A DNA stretch of 64,000 bases. It comes from a virus. The stretch lies in the IMG/VR virus record IMGVR_UViG_3300031975_001631. One strand, given 5' to 3'. The notes under the pieces were generated by a model. That model was not told the DNA's origin. It searched no databases and was given only the letters and a program-made list of their open reading frames with translations. Each line of letters starts with the position of its first letter. The first letter of the stretch is position 1. The position numbers and the translations under genes are program-made. Positions 2,581 to 64,000 of the stretch are shown here, piece by piece.

Positions 2581-3759
2581 CTACTTGGAATTCCAGGTCT
2601 TGTCAACCGTAATGTTAGCAAGACGAAACTCATCGTCAACAAACTTCATCATTGACTTGTCATTGTGAACAACATATCCCTCAGGACTTGTGGGAGTTTG
2701 ACCGATAAATGTCTTGATAGTGCGAACTTTGTTGAGTTGGTCAATGACCATTTTCTTAGCAGTACGAATAGAAATATACGCGGCAATCAAGAAGTACAAC
2801 TCACGACGATACATAGCGATGAACATGAGACCATCAGTCTCCATGTTTTCGTATTTTTTCTGAGTTGCAGCAGTTTTCTTCTTGCCCCTCTCAGTTTGAA
2901 TAGCAACTCTGTAGAATTGTGCAAACTCAGCAACCATTGTCTTGGCATTGACAACACCACGACCACCACGGATACGCTGATTGAAGAACTTTTTGAGAAG
3001 AAGGTGCATCATTAGGTTAGATTTACCTTGACCTTGTAGGATGTCAAGAAACTTAGAAGATTGCTTTAGCGCACCTTGTGCGAGATTGATGTGAGCATTG
3101 AATGTATACAGATCTCTTTCATCAAAAAGAGAAGCACCAGTGGCATCAATAAAATTCGCACTGGCAACAAAAACATCCTCAGTAGAATGATACTTAGGGG
3201 CTTTTTTGAGAGGTACAACTTCCGCAGTCTGTAGAGTATCGCCCTTGTATTTTGTATGAAATACGATTCCAAGTTTGGAAAGATGAACGACAGAACCTGT
3301 ACGGGAATGACGATCAACAGCATAAGTAATAGTATTAGGAGTGAAACAAATAACTCTGTTTCCACCGACAATACCGCTTCTCTTGTCTTCTTGAGTGAAT
3401 AGTAAGTCACCTTGAACAATACCAGAGATATTAAGTTGAGGAAGATATTCTAGACAATCTTTGAGCTTTGATGCAAGTTGACCGTTGTAAAAACGATCTA
3501 CATCAGTGTCATCAAAACAAATTTTAGGATTGACTTTGTTGAATACTGATTTAGTACCGACAAAGAAACGACCACTGACAGGTTCAGTGCCACAAATAAT
3601 AGCTGGGGCACCATCCCACTTGGTAGTGATATTTAAGTCACTGGACTTGCCAGATAACATATCACTGAACTGTCGGAGGAAAGTAACAACATTGAAACCG
3701 CCAGCAGTGCCGCTGTTCAGGATCTCGTCTTCTAGGTGCTCAAGGTGGGTGTTTTTCAT
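2581..3759 (-). CDS. Conserved cyanophage protein (DUF6267-like) with covalent nucleotidyltransferase/ligase motifs
   Basis: TKWDG (motif I), QGDLLF (III), EGYVV (IV), MKFV (V) in the correct order. Confidence 0.6.
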   Translation of the reverse strand: MKNTHLEHLEDEILNSGTAGGFNVVTFLRQFSDMLSGKSSDLNITTKWDGAPAIICGTEPVSGRFFVGTKSVFNKVNPKICFDDTDVDRFYNGQLASKLKDCLEYLPQLNISGIVQGDLLFTQEDKRSGIVGGNRVICFTPNTITYAVDRHSRTGSVVHLSKLGIVFHTKYKGDTLQTAEVVPLKKAPKYHSTEDVFVASANFIDATGASLFDERDLYTFNAHINLAQGALKQSSKFLDILQGQGKSNLMMHLLLKKFFNQRIRGGRGVVNAKTMVAEFAQFYRVAIQTERGKKKTAATQKKYENMETDGLMFIAMYRRELYFLIAAYISIRTAKKMVIDQLNKVRTIKTFIGQTPTSPEGYVVHNDKSMMKFVDDEFRLANITVDKTWNSK

Positions 3760-16705: not shown

Positions 16706-16789
16706 TAGGAGTAGAGAGACTTGAACTCTCACGACCATGAGGTCAACAGATTTTAAGTCTGGTGCGTCTACCTATTCCGCCACACTCCC
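16706..16789 (-). tRNA. trnL: tRNA-Leu (anticodon UAA), CCA not encoded
   Basis: GGGAGTG/TACTCCT acceptor stem, D-loop TGGCGGAATAGGTAGACGC, anticodon loop CTTAAAA, long variable arm, T-loop GTTCAAG. Confidence 0.93.
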
Positions 16790-36122: not shown

Positions 36123-36151
36123 ATTATACACAAAAAAAGAGGACTCGTCAA
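36123..36151 (-). promoter_or_regulatory. Sigma70-type promoter overlapping a terminator
   Basis: TTGACG-N17-TATAAT. Confidence 0.75.
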
Positions 36152-36162
36152 GAGTCCTCTTT
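36131..36162 (-). terminator. Rho-independent terminator after the DUF4278 peptide
   Basis: AGAGGACTC-TTGAC-GAGTCCTCT stem plus T-tract. Confidence 0.8.
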
Positions 36163-36181: not shown

Positions 36182-36325
36182 TCAGCTTTTTGATGCGAAC
36201 TTACGCTCAACTTTAATACCACGATACATTAATTCGTGATTTTGACGAGCAGTTTGCTCCTCAATTACTTTTGCTTTGTACTGGTCTGCGTCATACTTGA
36301 CGCCACGGTATGTGATTGTAGACAT
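36182..36325 (-). CDS. DUF4278-like YRG peptide, 47 aa (MSTITYRGVKYD...ELMYRGIKVERKFASKS)
   Basis: Hand translation; two YRG motifs; AGGAG Shine-Dalgarno; lies downstream of a glutamine-riboswitch-like RNA. Confidence 0.8.
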   Translation of the reverse strand: MSTITYRGVKYDADQYKAKVIEEQTARQNHELMYRGIKVERKFASKS

Positions 36326-36386
36326 CGGTTTACTCCTGAAGTTGGGTGAAAATTAACCTTCTCAGCTTTCGCTGGATCCGTTTTTT

Positions 36387-36575
36387 CCCGTTCCTTCAGT
36401 CGTGTGCGTCCCAATACCACCGACACTCTGGTGCTGAGTCCTTAAGGGTCTCAACCAACTCAACCTTAACTTGATTGCTAAGGTTTTGATTATTCTCAAT
36501 CTTCAGCATGATAGCATCAGTTTGAGTACAGGTGAGTGTTGTGTAGAATAATACTTCTAACATGGGATGAACGAC
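36387..36575 (-). ncRNA. Glutamine riboswitch-like aptamer 2 (Downstream-peptide/glnA class) with an ORF inside its P2 loop
   Basis: 5' half GTCGTTCATCCC (36575-36564) and 3' half GGGACGCACACGACTGAAGGAACGGG (36412-36387); CGTTC/GAACG and TCCC/GGGA complementarity. Confidence 0.6.
36396..36563 (-). CDS. Small protein, 55 aa (MLEVLFYTTLTCTQTDAIMLKIENNQNLSNQVKVELVETLKDSAPECRWYWDAHD)
   Basis: Hand translation; two Cys; ATG directly follows the 5' half of aptamer 2. Confidence 0.75.
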   Translation of the reverse strand: MLEVLFYTTLTCTQTDAIMLKIENNQNLSNQVKVELVETLKDSAPECRWYWDAHD

Positions 36576-36621
36576 TCCGTTCCGCGACTTACTTGCGTCC
36601 AGATTGCTCTGGATGAACGAC
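36576..36621 (-). ncRNA. Glutamine riboswitch-like aptamer 1 (compact)
   Basis: GTCGTTCA-TCCAGA-GCAA-TCTGGA-CGCAAGTAAGTCGC-GGAACGGA: P1 CGTTC/GAACG, P2 with GNRA loop. Confidence 0.6.
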
Positions 36622-36627
36622 AGGTCT

Positions 36628-36657
36628 ATTATAGACCACTATCATTATTTATGTCAA
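36628..36657 (-). promoter_or_regulatory. Sigma70 promoter with embedded late-promoter box and a palindrome over the -10
   Basis: TTGACA-N18-TATAAT; spacer begins TAAATA; GGTCTA-TAA-TAGACC. Confidence 0.8.
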
Positions 36658-38699: not shown

Positions 38700-39268
38700 G
38701 ATTCATCAATAATACTAATGTTCATAGCAACAGCAATCCTTCTCCCCTTCGTAGGCGGAACATGATGTGTAATGAATCCAGGAAACAAAACTAACATCCC
38801 ATTCTTTACATGGACTTCCTTATCTTCCAATAAGATAGGAGCAACATCTTCTTCGACATCAATATAGTAAACGCAAGACCATGCTGATGGAAAGTGATCA
38901 TGAGGGGTAGCTTGATCACCCTCCTCCATGACTACTGCCCATAAAGAAGCGAGTTTATACTTTGCATGAGTATGGAATACCTGCTCCGTAATGTAGTCTA
39001 GCACATATATGACATAATTGCCAATGTCCAAAAACCTATCATCAGTTTGATGTGTATCCCACTTAGTTAACCATGCCTTGACAGAATGGCCTGCGGTCTC
39101 ATCTGTATCCAGATATTCTGGATCTTGAGATCTTTTCTCCAGAATTATATCTTTAAATCTATTAAATTCTTCTGGACCATTTTCAATAATAAAGGTGGGC
39201 AACTTAGTGACCACCTTATCATATTGAATAACCCTAGATGTAGGTCCGTTCTCCATCTTGTCCACCAA
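38696..39268 (-). CDS. 2OG-Fe(II) oxygenase-like protein (paralogue of the neighbour)
   Basis: LWAVVM, PHDH, LVLFPGFITHHV, RIAVAMN. Confidence 0.8.
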   Translation of the reverse strand: MVDKMENGPTSRVIQYDKVVTKLPTFIIENGPEEFNRFKDIILEKRSQDPEYLDTDETAGHSVKAWLTKWDTHQTDDRFLDIGNYVIYVLDYITEQVFHTHAKYKLASLWAVVMEEGDQATPHDHFPSAWSCVYYIDVEEDVAPILLEDKEVHVKNGMLVLFPGFITHHVPPTKGRRIAVAMNISIIDES

Positions 39269-42200
39269 GCGTCATAATACTAAGTTCGCCCAAGTCTTCA
39301 AGGGCAGGAATTCCATTATACACCCTAACGGTATATCCGTTAACTGTTCTGTCAGAAATTCGTAAATTAACGATACCACCTGGGAAAGCATTTGTACCAC
39401 TTGCGATACCAATGACAGCATAGTCAGTATCATTCATTGCATCAGCAAAGTTAACATTGTAGATACCAGTACCGGTTTGAACGATAGAGCTTACATTATG
39501 TGAGCGATCTCCAGGGACATAATCACTGTTACCAACACCAAGGTTAGTGTTCATGTACCAAGAAGTGGCGCGACCTTCATAGAATTGAGTGTAAGTAGCA
39601 GTCTTGAGACCTACAAGATTCTTAAACTCCCCAACTCTGCTGACCTTATGGAAATCATTATTAAACACTTGGATGGAGTTACCCATGCTTCCAAATTGTG
39701 TTCCAATACCAGCACCATAATACAAGAGTTGAGGAGTGTTCTCATCAATGAGAATTTCAGTATAAGTTCCAGTCTCAGTTACATTATCAGAGTACTGATT
39801 CGGAGTTGTTGTACCAAATCCTACTGCAGAACCATCTGCAGCATAGTAGAACCTGATCGGATAGTTTACCTGCTGTGATGCATTCTCAAAGCGATAGGTT
39901 TGACCTACTTCAAATCTCAGGTAAGGAGATTCATAACCCTGAACATTGATAGAACGATCAGATCCGATGCCATAATATCTGTGATCTGTTGTCTTTGTAC
40001 CAATAGTAGTAGGTAGAGGCTTGTATGTGCCCTCAAACTGCGTATAAAGGTTCTTAGCGGTGTCTGCAGCGCCCGTTAAGGTGGAGAAACTAGAACTATT
40101 AGCAAAGAGTGCATTGTTTGCCTGAGAGGCGAGTCCAGCGAGCGTAGCGTAGGTAGCAATGCCAGCGACAATAGCCTCAGATGCAATACCTGCAAGTGTA
40201 GCACGAGGTGCCTCGTTAATCGTTACTGTAACGATACCAGCAGAGACTGGACTTACATCGAGACCAGCATTAAAGTTGACTGTTCCTGCTGTACCAACTG
40301 CGGATCCAGAGTCTTGAATGATGACACCCGAACCAGCAGCAACAATATTAGTTAACTGAGATCCGTCACCAATAAATCTCGGTGCAGTGATGTCATTATT
40401 AGATGTGATTGTAGCATCAACATCCAATTGAGAAGCTGTTCCTGCAGTTGTTGCACTGTCAGCAGTATTTGCCGAGGTCGCTGTGGTTGCTACCGTAGCC
40501 AATCCAGCAACAGTTGCAAAGTCTGCTTGAGTTGCTTTAGGAACAGAAACCCCAGCGGCAAGACTATTAGCAGTTTGTGCAACACCTACGGTATCTGCAG
40601 CAGTAATAGTGACAATACCAGCAGAGATTTGAGATACTGTCAGATTCTGACCGAAGTTAATAGTAGCAGCAGTACCAACAGTACTATCATCATCCTTAAT
40701 GATGACACCTGCACCAACACCAGTTACACCAGTAATACCAGAACCATCTCCAAAGAATGCAGTAGCAGTAATGTTACCGCTGGTATTAACATTGATGTTT
40801 GTACCAATACCAGAGGGACCAGGGTCCTGAGGTACAGAGTGAGCAACAAAAGTCAGATTGGGTTTAGAACCACGAACAATCAAGCTCTGACCCTTAGCAA
40901 GAGCAAGGTTGTCGATCTGAACATCCTGCAGAGGAGCCAGTCTTAAACCAAATACCAGGTAGTCAGACTCTTGGAACTGTGCGAGACCACCAGAGGACAG
41001 ACCAACTGACATGCCAACAGTAGAGTCAGAGTTCTGGTTTGTAGCATGAACTGTGACTAGGCTATCTTCTTGTGCTGTAAAAAACTCAAGGTTAGTATTG
41101 ATCTGGAAAGGAGGATTGAATCCAAGAGTACCAGATCTTCTTCTACCATGAACCAGAGCAGAGTCAGGACCCAACTTATCAAACTTTCTAGTAGCAAAGG
41201 CAAGGAAAGAGATGTTAGGGTCGAAAGAAGATACGAAGATCTTATCTCCAGGTTTGATACCAACTTTTTCAATCAGTCTCGTACCACCTCTATCAAGGGG
41301 AATACCATAGGTAATATAGTCACTCCTTTTGAATCCAGGAGTACTAGAAATACCAATAGAGAATGTAGAACGGAAGTCGTTCTGGTTTGCAACACTAATG
41401 CTAACCTCAAGGAGGTTATCTGCCTCATATAACTGAACCGGCTCAACAACACCGTTCGTTAGTGTTGTTTTAATAGAAGCAAGTCTACCAACCTCAGCAA
41501 GAGCAGCAGAAGGAGTGGTGAAAGAAATTACTGCTGAGAAAGGAGATGTATGTTCAACACCAGATGTACCATCAGCGTTAGAAAGATGACGACATCTTAC
41601 ATAGAAGGTATGATTAGAGTTAAGTCCTTCAGGAATTATCTGAGATAAAGAAGTATTATTGTTACCAACACTAGTAAATACTATAGTAGTAAATCCAATA
41701 TCTTCAGCAACTTCAAACTCAACTGCTTTTAAAGTACCAGATACTGCTTCACTATCAATAGAAACAAATGCACTGGATACAAGAGCAATACCAAATCTCT
41801 GATTTAGAGTAGTTCCACTGATAGGACTAATAATCGTAGGTGCCTGAACACCAGGAGCATTACCTAAGGTAGCGAATGAAACAATACCTGTAGAGTAATT
41901 AGAGGTATATGAAGTAAATGATGTGCCATCATCGTTAGACAGATGTCTTGTACGAGCATAGTGGGTCGTGAAACCTGCTAACTGAACATCAACTGTTTGG
42001 ATTAGACTAGTATTATTATCTCCAGTAGATTCCCAGACAATAGAACTAAAGTCAGATGCAGTAGAGAGTTGCATCTCAACTGCTTTTAAAGTACCAGATA
42101 CGGTAGTATCTCCAATAGCAACATAGCTACTAGATCTTATCTGTAAGCTTTCAGTACTAACACCAACATCATTATTGATTGGAGATTCAATAGTCGGTTC

Positions 42201-44174
42201 TGTAATACCAGCAGATTCTGTCAGAATACCAGAAGCAGTGTCAAGATAAACAATCGCTACACTGCCACCAGATCCATCAGGACTTCTTTGGTTGAACTGA
42301 CCAGTCCACCACTGAAAATTAGAATCACCATAGTCAGAAGTTGGAAACTGATCAAAGAGTAAATCGGAACCAGTCTGTGTACTACCAGCAGCAACAGTGG
42401 AAGAGTCCGTTGCACCAACACCAACACCCCGACCATAATCATTCAGCAACCACTGTCTCAGTTCCTGAGATGTAGCGTCAGGTTTTCTCTGCAAGTATAA
42501 AGCTACAAGACCAGTAACTACAGGAGCAGCAGCAGATGTACCGTTGAAGTTAGCGTCGAAATGAGTAGGATTATCATATCTCTGGAAGTCTGCATAAGGT
42601 CCACTAGGAAGACCAGCAGCTAGAGTGTCTTCAGCAGGTGCATAAATGTCAACACCAGGACCACTATTAGAATATTCAGCTTTTCTTTCTTTGTAGCTAG
42701 ATTCCACAAAGTCATCAAGAGCACCAACATTGATAACAGGATGATATCCAGTGGTCTCATCGACACCAATACCCTGAGGATTCATCCAATCCCTATGGGA
42801 TGTTGGTGTCCTCTGTCCACCAAACTCAGCCCTTGGATCATTAGAACCAAAGTATTGGTCGGCAACACCATTAAGTCTATGAGGATCTGTTCGTCCAATA
42901 CCAATATACTGGTTGTTATTACCAGCAGCGGCAATCATAATTACACCGGCTTCGATCATCTCAGCGCCAGCAGCATCAGTGGCGCTAGATCTAGATGAAG
43001 AAGACCATGATTTATAAGCACCTGATACTTGATTATTGAAACCAATAATCATATCTTCAACACCAGCTGGAGCTCCAGCTGCGACACTGCTCATGTCAAT
43101 GGTACTAGTAATACCAGTAAATTTGTATCTTACAGTTCCCGATGGGAGGACAGCAGCCTGATAACCCCAAGAACCATTAACAACCGTAGGATTTCTTACC
43201 CCAGTTTGAGTGTTTACTGGTTTATATTGATGGAAGAACTTAATGAGATCATAAGATGTCTCAATATCCATACCAACATTATCAGACACACAAGGCATTG
43301 CCCAGATGTTTGATTTAAATGCAAGACCAAAGTTCTTACCAGCAGCAAGAGATGCAGCTGCAGTACCGTGACCACTACCTAAGTTATTAGAACCTGCCGT
43401 GCCAATACCGATAGCACCATTTCTATTGTAACCAGGAGGAATAACTACTTCAGGAAGAAGAACGAACTCAGCAGATCTAGCATTGTTATCTTCCCACCAT
43501 GCTTCAGCTCTAGCAGTATCAACACCTACTGATCCGTCTTCTAAGGTATAAACAAATCCACCACTATTAAAGTAACCAGGGTCAAGATAATATGGGAAGT
43601 CAAGAACAAGGTCAAGCACCCTACTTTTCCCACTATCATCCAAGAATTCTGGGTGTGATTGTAGAGTACCAGAGTCTTGAATAACAATATCTACATTTCT
43701 ACCATCATATAAGAAGTTAAAGTTACCCTGCTTGGGTGCAATATCACCGACTACACCAGACCAAAAATCTCCGTTGGTTGCGATACCAGAAAGTCTAGGA
43801 AGTGCCCAGTTTGTTCTATTTAATTCTGCAGAAGTTGGATTTGAAGCTGGTGGACCATTACTATCTAAATCTCTATAGATTTTAACATCACTATCAAACC
43901 TTAACGGCATTACCAGAGATGGATCTGGAAAGCTTTCTCTATTGTCCTTTAGTGAAAGTTCAATCCACTTAACATGAGGATGACGAGCAATCTCTTGAGC
44001 CTCGTCATCTGTTAACTCATAAGTACCACGAACTGCACTAATTGAGTGCTCATCGGTACAAGTAATTTTTCTGTCTGGAATTCCGTCCTGATTAGAGTCG
44101 ATAGTGAGAGACCCATGGATCTCATTCCAATGATCAGCACTAGTAACTGCCAGGGTATATCTTTTAAGAGTCAT
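39234..44174 (-). CDS. Virion fibre protein with N-terminal subtilase (S8) domain and duplicated Ig/FN3-like modules
   Basis: Triad DIVIQDSG / GHGTAAASLAAG / FNGTSAAAP, oxyanion AAAGN; two SGTLKAVE...RHLSN modules; fibre-like repeats. Confidence 0.85.
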   Translation of the reverse strand: MTLKRYTLAVTSADHWNEIHGSLTIDSNQDGIPDRKITCTDEHSISAVRGTYELTDDEAQEIARHPHVKWIELSLKDNRESFPDPSLVMPLRFDSDVKIYRDLDSNGPPASNPTSAELNRTNWALPRLSGIATNGDFWSGVVGDIAPKQGNFNFLYDGRNVDIVIQDSGTLQSHPEFLDDSGKSRVLDLVLDFPYYLDPGYFNSGGFVYTLEDGSVGVDTARAEAWWEDNNARSAEFVLLPEVVIPPGYNRNGAIGIGTAGSNNLGSGHGTAAASLAAGKNFGLAFKSNIWAMPCVSDNVGMDIETSYDLIKFFHQYKPVNTQTGVRNPTVVNGSWGYQAAVLPSGTVRYKFTGITSTIDMSSVAAGAPAGVEDMIIGFNNQVSGAYKSWSSSSRSSATDAAGAEMIEAGVIMIAAAGNNNQYIGIGRTDPHRLNGVADQYFGSNDPRAEFGGQRTPTSHRDWMNPQGIGVDETTGYHPVINVGALDDFVESSYKERKAEYSNSGPGVDIYAPAEDTLAAGLPSGPYADFQRYDNPTHFDANFNGTSAAAPVVTGLVALYLQRKPDATSQELRQWLLNDYGRGVGVGATDSSTVAAGSTQTGSDLLFDQFPTSDYGDSNFQWWTGQFNQRSPDGSGGSVAIVYLDTASGILTESAGITEPTIESPINNDVGVSTESLQIRSSSYVAIGDTTVSGTLKAVEMQLSTASDFSSIVWESTGDNNTSLIQTVDVQLAGFTTHYARTRHLSNDDGTSFTSYTSNYSTGIVSFATLGNAPGVQAPTIISPISGTTLNQRFGIALVSSAFVSIDSEAVSGTLKAVEFEVAEDIGFTTIVFTSVGNNNTSLSQIIPEGLNSNHTFYVRCRHLSNADGTSGVEHTSPFSAVISFTTPSAALAEVGRLASIKTTLTNGVVEPVQLYEADNLLEVSISVANQNDFRSTFSIGISSTPGFKRSDYITYGIPLDRGGTRLIEKVGIKPGDKIFVSSFDPNISFLAFATRKFDKLGPDSALVHGRRRSGTLGFNPPFQINTNLEFFTAQEDSLVTVHATNQNSDSTVGMSVGLSSGGLAQFQESDYLVFGLRLAPLQDVQIDNLALAKGQSLIVRGSKPNLTFVAHSVPQDPGPSGIGTNINVNTSGNITATAFFGDGSGITGVTGVGAGVIIKDDDSTVGTAATINFGQNLTVSQISAGIVTITAADTVGVAQTANSLAAGVSVPKATQADFATVAGLATVATTATSANTADSATTAGTASQLDVDATITSNNDITAPRFIGDGSQLTNIVAAGSGVIIQDSGSAVGTAGTVNFNAGLDVSPVSAGIVTVTINEAPRATLAGIASEAIVAGIATYATLAGLASQANNALFANSSSFSTLTGAADTAKNLYTQFEGTYKPLPTTIGTKTTDHRYYGIGSDRSINVQGYESPYLRFEVGQTYRFENASQQVNYPIRFYYAADGSAVGFGTTTPNQYSDNVTETGTYTEILIDENTPQLLYYGAGIGTQFGSMGNSIQVFNNDFHKVSRVGEFKNLVGLKTATYTQFYEGRATSWYMNTNLGVGNSDYVPGDRSHNVSSIVQTGTGIYNVNFADAMNDTDYAVIGIASGTNAFPGGIVNLRISDRTVNGYTVRVYNGIPALEDLGELSIMTLGGQDGERTYI
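41718..42101. repeat. 27-bp direct repeat (ctcaactgcttttaaagtaccagatac) marking a domain duplication
   Basis: Copies at 41718-41744 and 42075-42101. Confidence 0.85.
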
Positions 44175-63911: not shown

Positions 63912-63992
63912 GAACAAAAAAGTAAGACCATCAGGGAATGGTGGAGTTACTATTTTCCTACCACCCTCAGGTAGGAATATTAAAGACGCTTT
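63912..63992 (-). ncRNA. Structured psbA leader, PhotoRC-II-like RNA
   Basis: Hairpins TTCCTACC/GGTAGGAA and AGTAA-CTCC-ACCAT-TCCCTG-ATGGT-C-TTACT upstream of psbA. Confidence 0.55.
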
Positions 63993-64000
63993 TATACACC

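What the first reader, a model, noticed from the sequence alone, without database searches (positions are those of the whole stretch)
36387..36575. An entire 55-codon ORF nested inside the loop of the second aptamer
Seen: aptamer 1 has a 4-nt GCAA loop in P2. In aptamer 2, the 5' strand (GTCGTTCATCCC) is immediately followed by the ATG, and the 3' strand (GGGACGCACACGACTGAAGGAACGGG) encodes the last codons W-D-A-H-D-stop. Inference: translation of this ORF would unfold the aptamer, and ligand-induced folding would bury the start codon. That gives a ribosome-coupled split riboswitch controlling two peptides, possibly reciprocally. I know of no description of this architecture. Standard covariance searches would miss it because of the roughly 150-nt insertion.
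Basis: partly seen in the sequence, partly recalled or inferred. Interest (0 to 1): 0.85.

Follow-up and report, generated by a model that had tools for sequence, protein, structure and literature searches.

The report
Gene inside nested phage glutamine riboswitch
In this marine cyanophage, and in hundreds of relatives, a real 55-codon gene sits inside a glutamine-sensing RNA switch whose two sensor cores fold one inside the other, so sensing nitrogen status and translating that gene must compete on one RNA; I found no paper describing this layout.

Summary
The element (minus strand, 36619-36388, T4-like cyanophage) is not two aptamers in a row. It is a nested pair of glutamine-I-type cores sharing one P3 helix: a canonical outer core and a circularly permuted inner core. 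In 262 distinct homologous elements the P1 pair and the 23-60 long-range pair are Watson-Crick in 98-100% under nesting, against 73-86% under tandem. P3 and the inner P2 covary across the ORF. The ORF is a real gene (dN/dS 0.17). Its GGAG site is built from inner-core nucleotides and its stop codon lies in the outer E-loop. That same strand alternatively pairs over the ribosome site of the downstream DUF4278 (IF17-like) gene. Most likely, glutamine turns DUF4278 on and the nested gene off. Binding and regulation are inferred, not tested; ORF-free versions exist, so the gene may be a passenger. Published work I could read lists such RNAs only as tandem or single aptamers; two key papers were unavailable. 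This scan has already noted the same layout in at least 65 other genomes.

The parts
36628..36657 (-). Sigma70-type promoter (TTGACA-18-TATAAT) with a T4 late-type ATAAATA inside the spacer (36652-36646); predicted start about 36621, just before the aptamer
   Evidence: 12/12 consensus match; -35, -10 and late-type motifs in 200, 221 and 211 of 243 homologous upstream regions. Start site inferred.
36615..36619 (-). Outer core P1, 5' strand (C1-C5); pairs with 36393-36389
   Evidence: Watson-Crick at 5-55 in 261/262; C-G to U-A double change across about 230 nt in 5 loci, 3 tree changes
36598..36613 (-). Outer P2 hairpin, 6 bp with GCAA loop; holds a paralogous ORF in 39 of 262 homologues
36585..36597 (-). 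Outer J2/3 (C21 G22 C23, AAGUA E-loop strand) and shared P3 5' strand (36589-36585)
   Evidence: P3 terminal pair G-C, A-U or U-A and matched 3-nt length changes on both strands; MI rank 3 of 496
36569..36583 (-). Inner (circularly permuted) P1 hairpin: G54', GAACG, G60', short loop, CGUUC. The GGAG at 36578-36575 is the candidate ribosome site of the nested ORF
   Evidence: 55'-5' pair Watson-Crick in 262/262, G-C to C-G in 69 loci; GGAG in 127/209 ORF-bearing and 0/53 ORF-free elements
36564..36567 (-). Inner P2, 5' strand (UCCC), directly before the ATG
   Evidence: Covaries with 36412-36409 across the ORF
36396..36563 (-). Nested 55-aa gene (phrog_504, T4-GC430): hydrophobic N-terminus and a helical hairpin between two invariant Cys; function not identified
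   Evidence: PHROG E 1.5e-25; 306 phage records; dN/dS median 0.17; AlphaFold pLDDT 80.5; no significant Pfam or PDB match
36403..36412 (-). Inner P2 3' strand (GGGA) and inner J2/3 (C21' G22' C23' A C A), overlapping codons W-D-A-H
   Evidence: C23' covaries with G60' at 36577; synonymous sites frozen
36388..36402 (-). Shared P3 3' strand (36402-36398), E-loop GAA, G54, outer P1 3' strand and G60. Contains the ORF stop codon (36398-36396) and the anti-RBS strand (36399-36394)
   Evidence: Stop at U50-R51-A52 in 202/209 inner ORFs; G60 covaries with C23 at 36595
36333..36341 (-). Expression platform: CUUCAG (36341-36336), which pairs with the E-loop strand, overlapping the AGGAG ribosome site (36337-36333)
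   Evidence: Pairing probability about 1.0 without ligand; A51 goes with U in 68 loci and never with C; 86% of homologues against 21% of spacer shuffles
36182..36325 (-). DUF4278 (IF17-like) 47-aa gene with two YRG motifs, the likely regulated output
   Evidence: Pfam PF14105 above cut-off; two YRG motifs in 232 of 247 readable downstream proteins
36136..36162 (-). Intrinsic terminator closing the two-gene transcript
   Evidence: 11-bp stem with T tail

Best explanation
A phage-encoded double glutamine-I riboswitch in which two ligand cores sit head to head at the two ends of one P3 helix. The outer core is canonical. The inner core is circularly permuted, and its P2 loop carries a small protein gene. 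At low glutamine the long-range P1 and P3 are open, the E-loop strand pairs over the ribosome site of DUF4278 (off), and the nested gene can be translated from the GGAG at the tip of the inner P1 hairpin. At high glutamine both cores close. The E-loop strand and G60 are drawn into the outer core and free the DUF4278 site (on), while G59' and G60' of the GGAG are drawn into the inner core (nested gene off). A ribosome on the nested gene melts P2', P3 and outer P1, so translation and sensing exclude each other on one molecule. Shown by comparative data: the topology (about 0.95), the coding status of the ORF, and the alternative anti-RBS helix. Inferred: glutamine binding (about 0.85 outer, 0.7 inner), on-switching of DUF4278 (about 0.75), off-switching of the nested gene (about 0.5), and inhibition of host glutamine synthetase by the DUF4278 peptide.
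For: Nested pairs are Watson-Crick in 261, 262, 258 and 256 of 262 elements, against 193, 192, 225 and 220 for tandem. All four 23/60 combinations occur and fit nesting. Nested pairs rank 3, 5, 9, 11 and 22 of 496 by corrected mutual information; tandem pairs rank 69 to 405. The inner P1 change recurs: 23 changes on the tree, 6 of 6 supported independent pairs, p 0.03. G-U pairs are tolerated on the transcribed strand. C1, G2, G22, C58 and G59, which contact glutamine according to PMC6698751, are present in both cores. The anti-RBS helix covaries and dominates the ligand-free fold, as proposed for gifB in PMC6212724. GGAG occurs only in ORF-bearing elements. Synonymous sites in the last codons are frozen: Asp GAC 165/166 against 126/492 elsewhere.
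Against: 53 of 262 elements have no inner ORF, and distant paralogues of the gene occur with no aptamer. 82 of 209 ORF-bearing elements lack GGAG, and GGAG is confined to the short-P3 lineage. Inner P2 and P1 are predicted to be pre-formed in most homologues, so the ligand effect on the nested gene may be small. The inner core lacks the E-loop, has an A-C or A-G mismatch at 23-60 in 5 loci, and needs G60' to pair from a 3-4 nt loop. C1, G2, C58 and G59 were part of my search patterns, so their conservation is not an independent test. The tree is a FastTree on short proteins, and loci were gathered by targeted patterns.
Confidence: 0.6

Rival explanations
1. Passenger gene. The nested double riboswitch is real and controls only DUF4278. 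The ORF was inserted into a tolerant P2 loop, uses the strong promoter and borrows a stop codon from the conserved core; its clash with folding is tolerated, not selected.
For: ORF-free doubles exist (53/262) and paralogues occupy either or both P2 loops. The family also occurs outside aptamers, and once just upstream of an ORF-free double. Homing endonuclease genes also insert into this element. No glutamine-codon enrichment (3.8% against 3.4%).
Against: Start fixed at 3-5 nt after the inner 5' strand and stop fixed in the E-loop in 202/209. GGAG appears only with the ORF. AUG enters the P2' stem in most loci. The arrangement persists across proteins of 18-96% identity.
Confidence: 0.24
2. 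Leader-like coupling. The main role of the nested ORF is to let terminating ribosomes melt the anti-RBS helix, so DUF4278 is made when either glutamine is bound or the nested gene is translated. The two outputs are then not simply reciprocal.
For: The stop codon lies inside the anti-RBS strand in 202/209 loci, and that helix is the ligand-free ground state.
Against: The protein is under purifying selection with an invariant Cys pair, unlike a pure leader peptide. No stalling or glutamine-codon signal. ORF-free versions keep the same platform. The next start is about 70 nt away here.
Confidence: 0.08
3. The fold is real but senses another ligand or a protein, or one core is a ligand-free structural partner as in singlet glycine riboswitches.
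For: The inner core lacks the E-loop and tolerates a 23-60 mismatch in 5 loci. Nothing was assayed.
Against: The glutamine-contacting positions and the long-range pair are kept in both cores, the pair with compensatory changes. The downstream gene is the same family as behind proven glutamine riboswitches.
Confidence: 0.06
4. Two independent aptamers in tandem, the second split by the ORF.
For: In this phage the two CGUUC and two GAACG strands are identical, so both pairings are possible. Published catalogues treat the halves this way.
Against: Tandem pairing gives mismatches in about 70 loci at 5-55 and in 37-42 loci at 23-60, and leaves P3 unpaired. It is 4 kcal/mol less stable than the nested fold.
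Confidence: 0.02

Closest known systems
Glutamine-I riboswitch (glnA RNA, Rfam RF01739), e.g. the Synechocystis gifB/IF17 leader (PMC6212724)
   Same: The outer core matches position for position (P1, P2, P3, E-loop, G22, G54, 23-60 long-range pair). Same downstream family (DUF4278) and same predicted logic: ligand frees a paired ribosome site.
   Different: P3 is not closed by a short loop but extends into a second, circularly permuted core that holds a whole gene. The stop codon of that gene is part of the E-loop. It is phage-encoded; all pattern hits examined in bacterial genomes were phage-like contigs or chance matches.
'Tandem' glutamine riboswitches (PMC2864571; 157 doublets in PMC9481103)
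   Same: Two aptamer-like units next to each other. The glnA alignment of PMC2864571 contains a first half with this ORF and second half left as flank, and a second half listed alone.
   Different: Those papers treat the units as consecutive and pseudo-cooperative. Covariation here shows interlocked strands with a shared P3. How many of the 157 doublets are nested was not tested.
Glutamine-II riboswitch (Downstream-peptide, RF01704; PMC6698751)
   Same: Same ligand pocket without an E-loop, C-G long-range pair, DUF4278 target; it can be split in two strands and crystallised as a strand-exchanged dimer.
   Different: It uses a pseudoknot, which is absent here (Rfam match 20.3 bits with broken pairs). 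Here the strand exchange is within one molecule and is conserved in nature.
ORFs in loops of structured RNAs (homing endonucleases in group I introns) and leader-peptide attenuators (from my own knowledge)
   Same: A reading frame interrupts or overlaps a functional RNA fold, so ribosomes and folding compete.
   Different: No splicing core. The ORF is a conserved folded protein without regulatory codon runs, and the surrounding RNA is a metabolite sensor.

Membership tests
Glutamine-I riboswitch (RF01739) | Three-way junction P1/P2/P3 supported by covariation | tested here: met
   Met for the outer core when read as nested
Glutamine-I riboswitch (RF01739) | E-loop motif at the base of P3 | tested here: met
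   AAGUA at 36594-36590 against GAA at 36397-36395; outer core only, and many homologues carry A51
Glutamine-I riboswitch (RF01739) | Long-range 23-60 pair and ligand-contacting C1, G2, G22, C58, G59 | tested here: met
   23-60 Watson-Crick in 258/262 (outer) and 256/262 (inner) with compensatory changes; contacts from PMC6698751. The contact bases were partly fixed by my search patterns.
Glutamine-I riboswitch (RF01739) | Match to the Rfam model at the gathering score | tested here: not met
   23.7 bits against 35, on the first half alone. The model cannot span the insert; ORF-free relatives pass. This lowers formal membership, not the functional likeness.
Glutamine-I riboswitch (RF01739) | In a 5' leader with an expression platform, upstream of DUF4278 or nitrogen genes | tested here: met
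   Promoter directly upstream, DUF4278 downstream, covarying anti-RBS helix
Glutamine-I riboswitch (RF01739) | Selective binding of L-glutamine and ligand-dependent gene control | not testable with these tools
   Needs probing, calorimetry and reporters
Glutamine-II riboswitch (RF01704) | Pseudoknot with a helix closing around the 3' P1 strand | tested here: not met
   Broken pairs in the Rfam alignment, 20.3 bits against 33
Tandem (consecutive) double riboswitch | Each unit closes its own P1 and 23-60 pair | tested here: not met
   Tandem pairs fail in informative loci and rank 69-405 of 496
Amino-acid-sensing leader peptide attenuator | Leader enriched in codons for the sensed amino acid | tested here: not met
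   Gln 3.8% against 3.4% background
IF17-type glutamine synthetase inactivating factor (downstream gene) | Binds and inhibits glutamine synthetase | not tested
   DUF4278 match only; PMC6212724 notes that short Prochlorococcus forms lack the C-terminal part needed in Synechocystis

The most novel reading that the evidence does not exclude
A natural interlocked double riboswitch with a circularly permuted core, in which one metabolite switches off a gene lying inside the sensor and switches on the next gene, with ribosomes on the inner gene resetting the sensor. It is widespread in cyanophages as a way to read host nitrogen status, and many catalogued 'tandem' glutamine riboswitches are really of this nested kind.
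Probability: 0.45. Interest if true: 0.88.

Novelty: new variant of a known kind. Interest (0 to 1): 0.76.

Why it matters
Riboswitch specialists know consecutive aptamers and aptamers overlapping start codons. I found no report of two cores interlocked through one helix, of a natural permuted glutamine core, or of a whole gene inside an aptamer. The element is short, matched in about 420 phage genome records and easy to test in vitro. It would explain why Rfam calls only fragments here, suggest a re-reading of the catalogued tandem glutamine riboswitches, and make testable how cyanophages sense and steer host nitrogen metabolism. It also suggests that aptamers split by coding sequence are systematically missed by intergenic searches.

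Tried and rejected
Tandem topology: rejected by covariation. Glutamine-II pseudoknot: not present. Glutamine-codon leader peptide: no enrichment. Spurious ORF: rejected by dN/dS and codon-position pattern. Function of the nested protein: Pfam, ESM Atlas and Foldseek against viral and PDB libraries gave only uncharacterised cyanophage relatives or nothing significant. Cellular examples: a pattern scan of GTDB gave 42 hits; the real elements I inspected lay on phage-like contigs, and the pattern would miss divergent host forms. Ames and Breaker 2011 and Ren et al. 2015 are not held, so prior mention of nesting there cannot be excluded. Literature searches for nested, permuted or ORF-containing glutamine aptamers found no description. 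No second copy of the element and no clear paralogue of the gene in this genome. The metagenome scan and complex prediction were not used.

Full report
Setting. The window is part of a 180-kb T4-like cyanophage genome with psbA and talC motifs. On the minus strand a perfect sigma70-type promoter precedes the element, the 55-codon ORF, a 47-aa DUF4278 gene and a terminator. Rfam finds nothing at gathering thresholds and only the first half, weakly, in E-value mode.

Conservation. The ORF is phrog_504 / T4-GC430, found in 306 phage records. Both half-sites flank it in the close homologues and in 12 of 12 sampled isolates down to 33% protein identity. The central RNA motif matches 423 phage records. 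I assembled 262 distinct complete elements from protein and pattern searches. Patterns fixed one side of a pair and left the partner free, so counts are not population frequencies, but the partner tests are fair.

Topology. The first half has the AAGUA strand of the E-loop but no GAA partner; the second half has the reverse. AGUCG in the first half complements CGACU in the second. This suggested nesting, which covariation confirms. At P1 position 5-55 the states (first 5', first 3', second 5', second 3') are C,G,C,G in 192 loci, C,C,G,G in 64 and U,C,G,A in 5. At the long-range 23-60 pair they are C,G,C,G in 217, G,G,C,C in 19, C,C,G,G in 15 and G,C,G,C in 2. Nested pairing is Watson-Crick in 261, 262, 258 and 256 of 262; tandem in 193, 192, 225 and 220. 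The terminal P3 pair is G-C, A-U or U-A, and long and short forms of P3 match on both strands. In an unguided mutual-information ranking the nested pairs come 3rd, 5th, 9th, 11th and 22nd of 496, and the tandem pairs 69th to 405th. On a protein tree of 194 loci the inner P1 pair changes 23 times with both sides together (6 of 6 supported independent pairs, p 0.03), P3 about 9 times, and outer P1 and each 23-60 pair about 3 times. That tree is weak, being a FastTree on short proteins. The inner P2 that closes around the ORF also covaries.

The result is an outer core that matches the glutamine-I aptamer position for position, and an inner, circularly permuted core at the other end of P3. Both keep the nucleotides reported to contact glutamine (PMC6698751), though these were partly fixed by my patterns. 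The inner core lacks an E-loop, as glutamine-II does.

The nested gene is real. Median dN/dS is 0.17 over 52 homologues, and differences fall 378/195/637 on codon positions 1/2/3. Two cysteines are invariant in 87 diverse members. AlphaFold gives a helical hairpin at pLDDT 80.5 with no informative fold match. Its last codons are under RNA constraint: Asp GAC in 165/166 against 126/492 elsewhere, and only GCA for Ala. Where the 23-60 pair flips, the protein ending changes from DAND to DGND. The start lies 3-5 nt after the inner 5' strand, and the stop is U50-R51-A52 of the outer E-loop in 202 of 209. Of 262 elements, 187 carry an ORF in the inner P2 only, 17 in the outer P2 only, 22 in both and 36 in neither. 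The two loop families are homologous (HHalign 94%, E 1e-7). Distant paralogues also occur with no aptamer.

Expression platform. Without ligand the E-loop strand is predicted to pair with CUUCAG overlapping the AGGAG of DUF4278 (probability about 1.0). This holds in 86% of homologues against 21% after shuffling the spacer. It covaries: A51 goes with U in 68 loci and never with C, while G51 goes with C or U (0 opposite changes in 14 independent pairs). It parallels the mechanism proposed for gifB, a proven on-switch (PMC6212724). For the nested gene, the GGAG at the tip of the inner P1 hairpin consists of G59', G60' and two loop bases. It is present in 127 of 209 ORF-bearing elements and none of 53 ORF-free ones, although it is confined to the short-P3 lineage, where the split is 127/171 against 0/8.

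Mechanism. I commit to this reading at about 0.6. Glutamine closes both cores, frees the DUF4278 site and ties up the nested gene's site; a ribosome on the nested gene necessarily melts the sensor. Topology, coding status and the alternative helix are shown comparatively. Ligand binding, direction of control and any action on host glutamine synthetase are inferred. The main rival is that the gene is a tolerated passenger in a loop, supported by ORF-free doubles, paralogues elsewhere and predicted pre-formation of the inner helices. A further possibility is translational coupling through the stop codon in the anti-RBS strand.

What is known. Glutamine riboswitches in cyanophages have been listed without structural comment (PMC9964418, PMC9004378). 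Doublets are described as tandem and pseudo-cooperative (PMC9481103). The original glnA alignment contains a first half as a stand-alone aptamer, with this ORF and the second half left as flank (PMC2864571 supplement). Rfam calls ORF-free second halves as single aptamers. My searches found no description of nesting or of an ORF inside the aptamer, but two key papers could not be read. I reached the nested reading before consulting the scan's notes; they show the same layout reported on at least 65 other genomes, which is not independent evidence.

Verdict. A real, widespread and apparently undescribed architecture of a known riboswitch class: new variant of a known kind, interest 0.76.

Noticed in passing
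window 36623-36637 (-): An inverted repeat centred on the -10 box of the promoter. A stem of 5 bp or more occurs in 88% of 243 homologous upstream regions against 13% of shuffles, with varying sequence. It would form a 5' hairpin in transcripts from the overlapping late-type promoter, or be an operator.
   Followed up: partly
window 36357-36380 (-): An optional module between the aptamer and the DUF4278 ribosome site: CGGAUC, a covarying hairpin, then AGAAGG or UAAAGG. Present in 28 of 262 elements. It may be a relic of a third aptamer unit or a separate motif.
   Followed up: partly
L427:764-1336 (S-H68) and L059: A GIY-YIG-like endonuclease gene (judged from its sequence motif) inserted exactly in the loop of the inner P1 hairpin; the riboswitch may be a homing target.
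   Followed up: partly
L065, L095, L125, L143, L157, just after the 3' strand: A second insertion with a short duplication of the E-loop strand, followed by another CGUUCAUCCC and a Cys-containing, endonuclease-like ORF that displaces DUF4278.
   Followed up: no
L222, around 2879-2910 (-): A three-unit arrangement of glutamine aptamer halves with an altered P3.
   Followed up: no
L139:4560-4850: A symmetric version in which both halves keep a full E-loop; a possible ancestral-type form of the nested pair.
   Followed up: no
L419, L420, L422, L423, L424: Distant paralogues of the nested protein at another phage locus with no aptamer, several between the same two small genes.
   Followed up: partly
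L091 (S-SSM7), L083, L085, L089, L092: The element often lies directly upstream of pstS or talC host-metabolism genes.
   Followed up: no
window 63942-64000 (-) and 16706-16789 (-): A PhotoRC-II RNA cut by the window end, and one tRNA gene.
   Followed up: no
window 39234-44174 (-): A 1646-aa protein with a subtilisin-like N-terminal part (catalytic-serine motif visible) followed by repeats and a fibre-like region.
   Followed up: no
window 36123-36162 (-): The terminator hairpin of this operon contains the -35 box of the next promoter.
   Followed up: no
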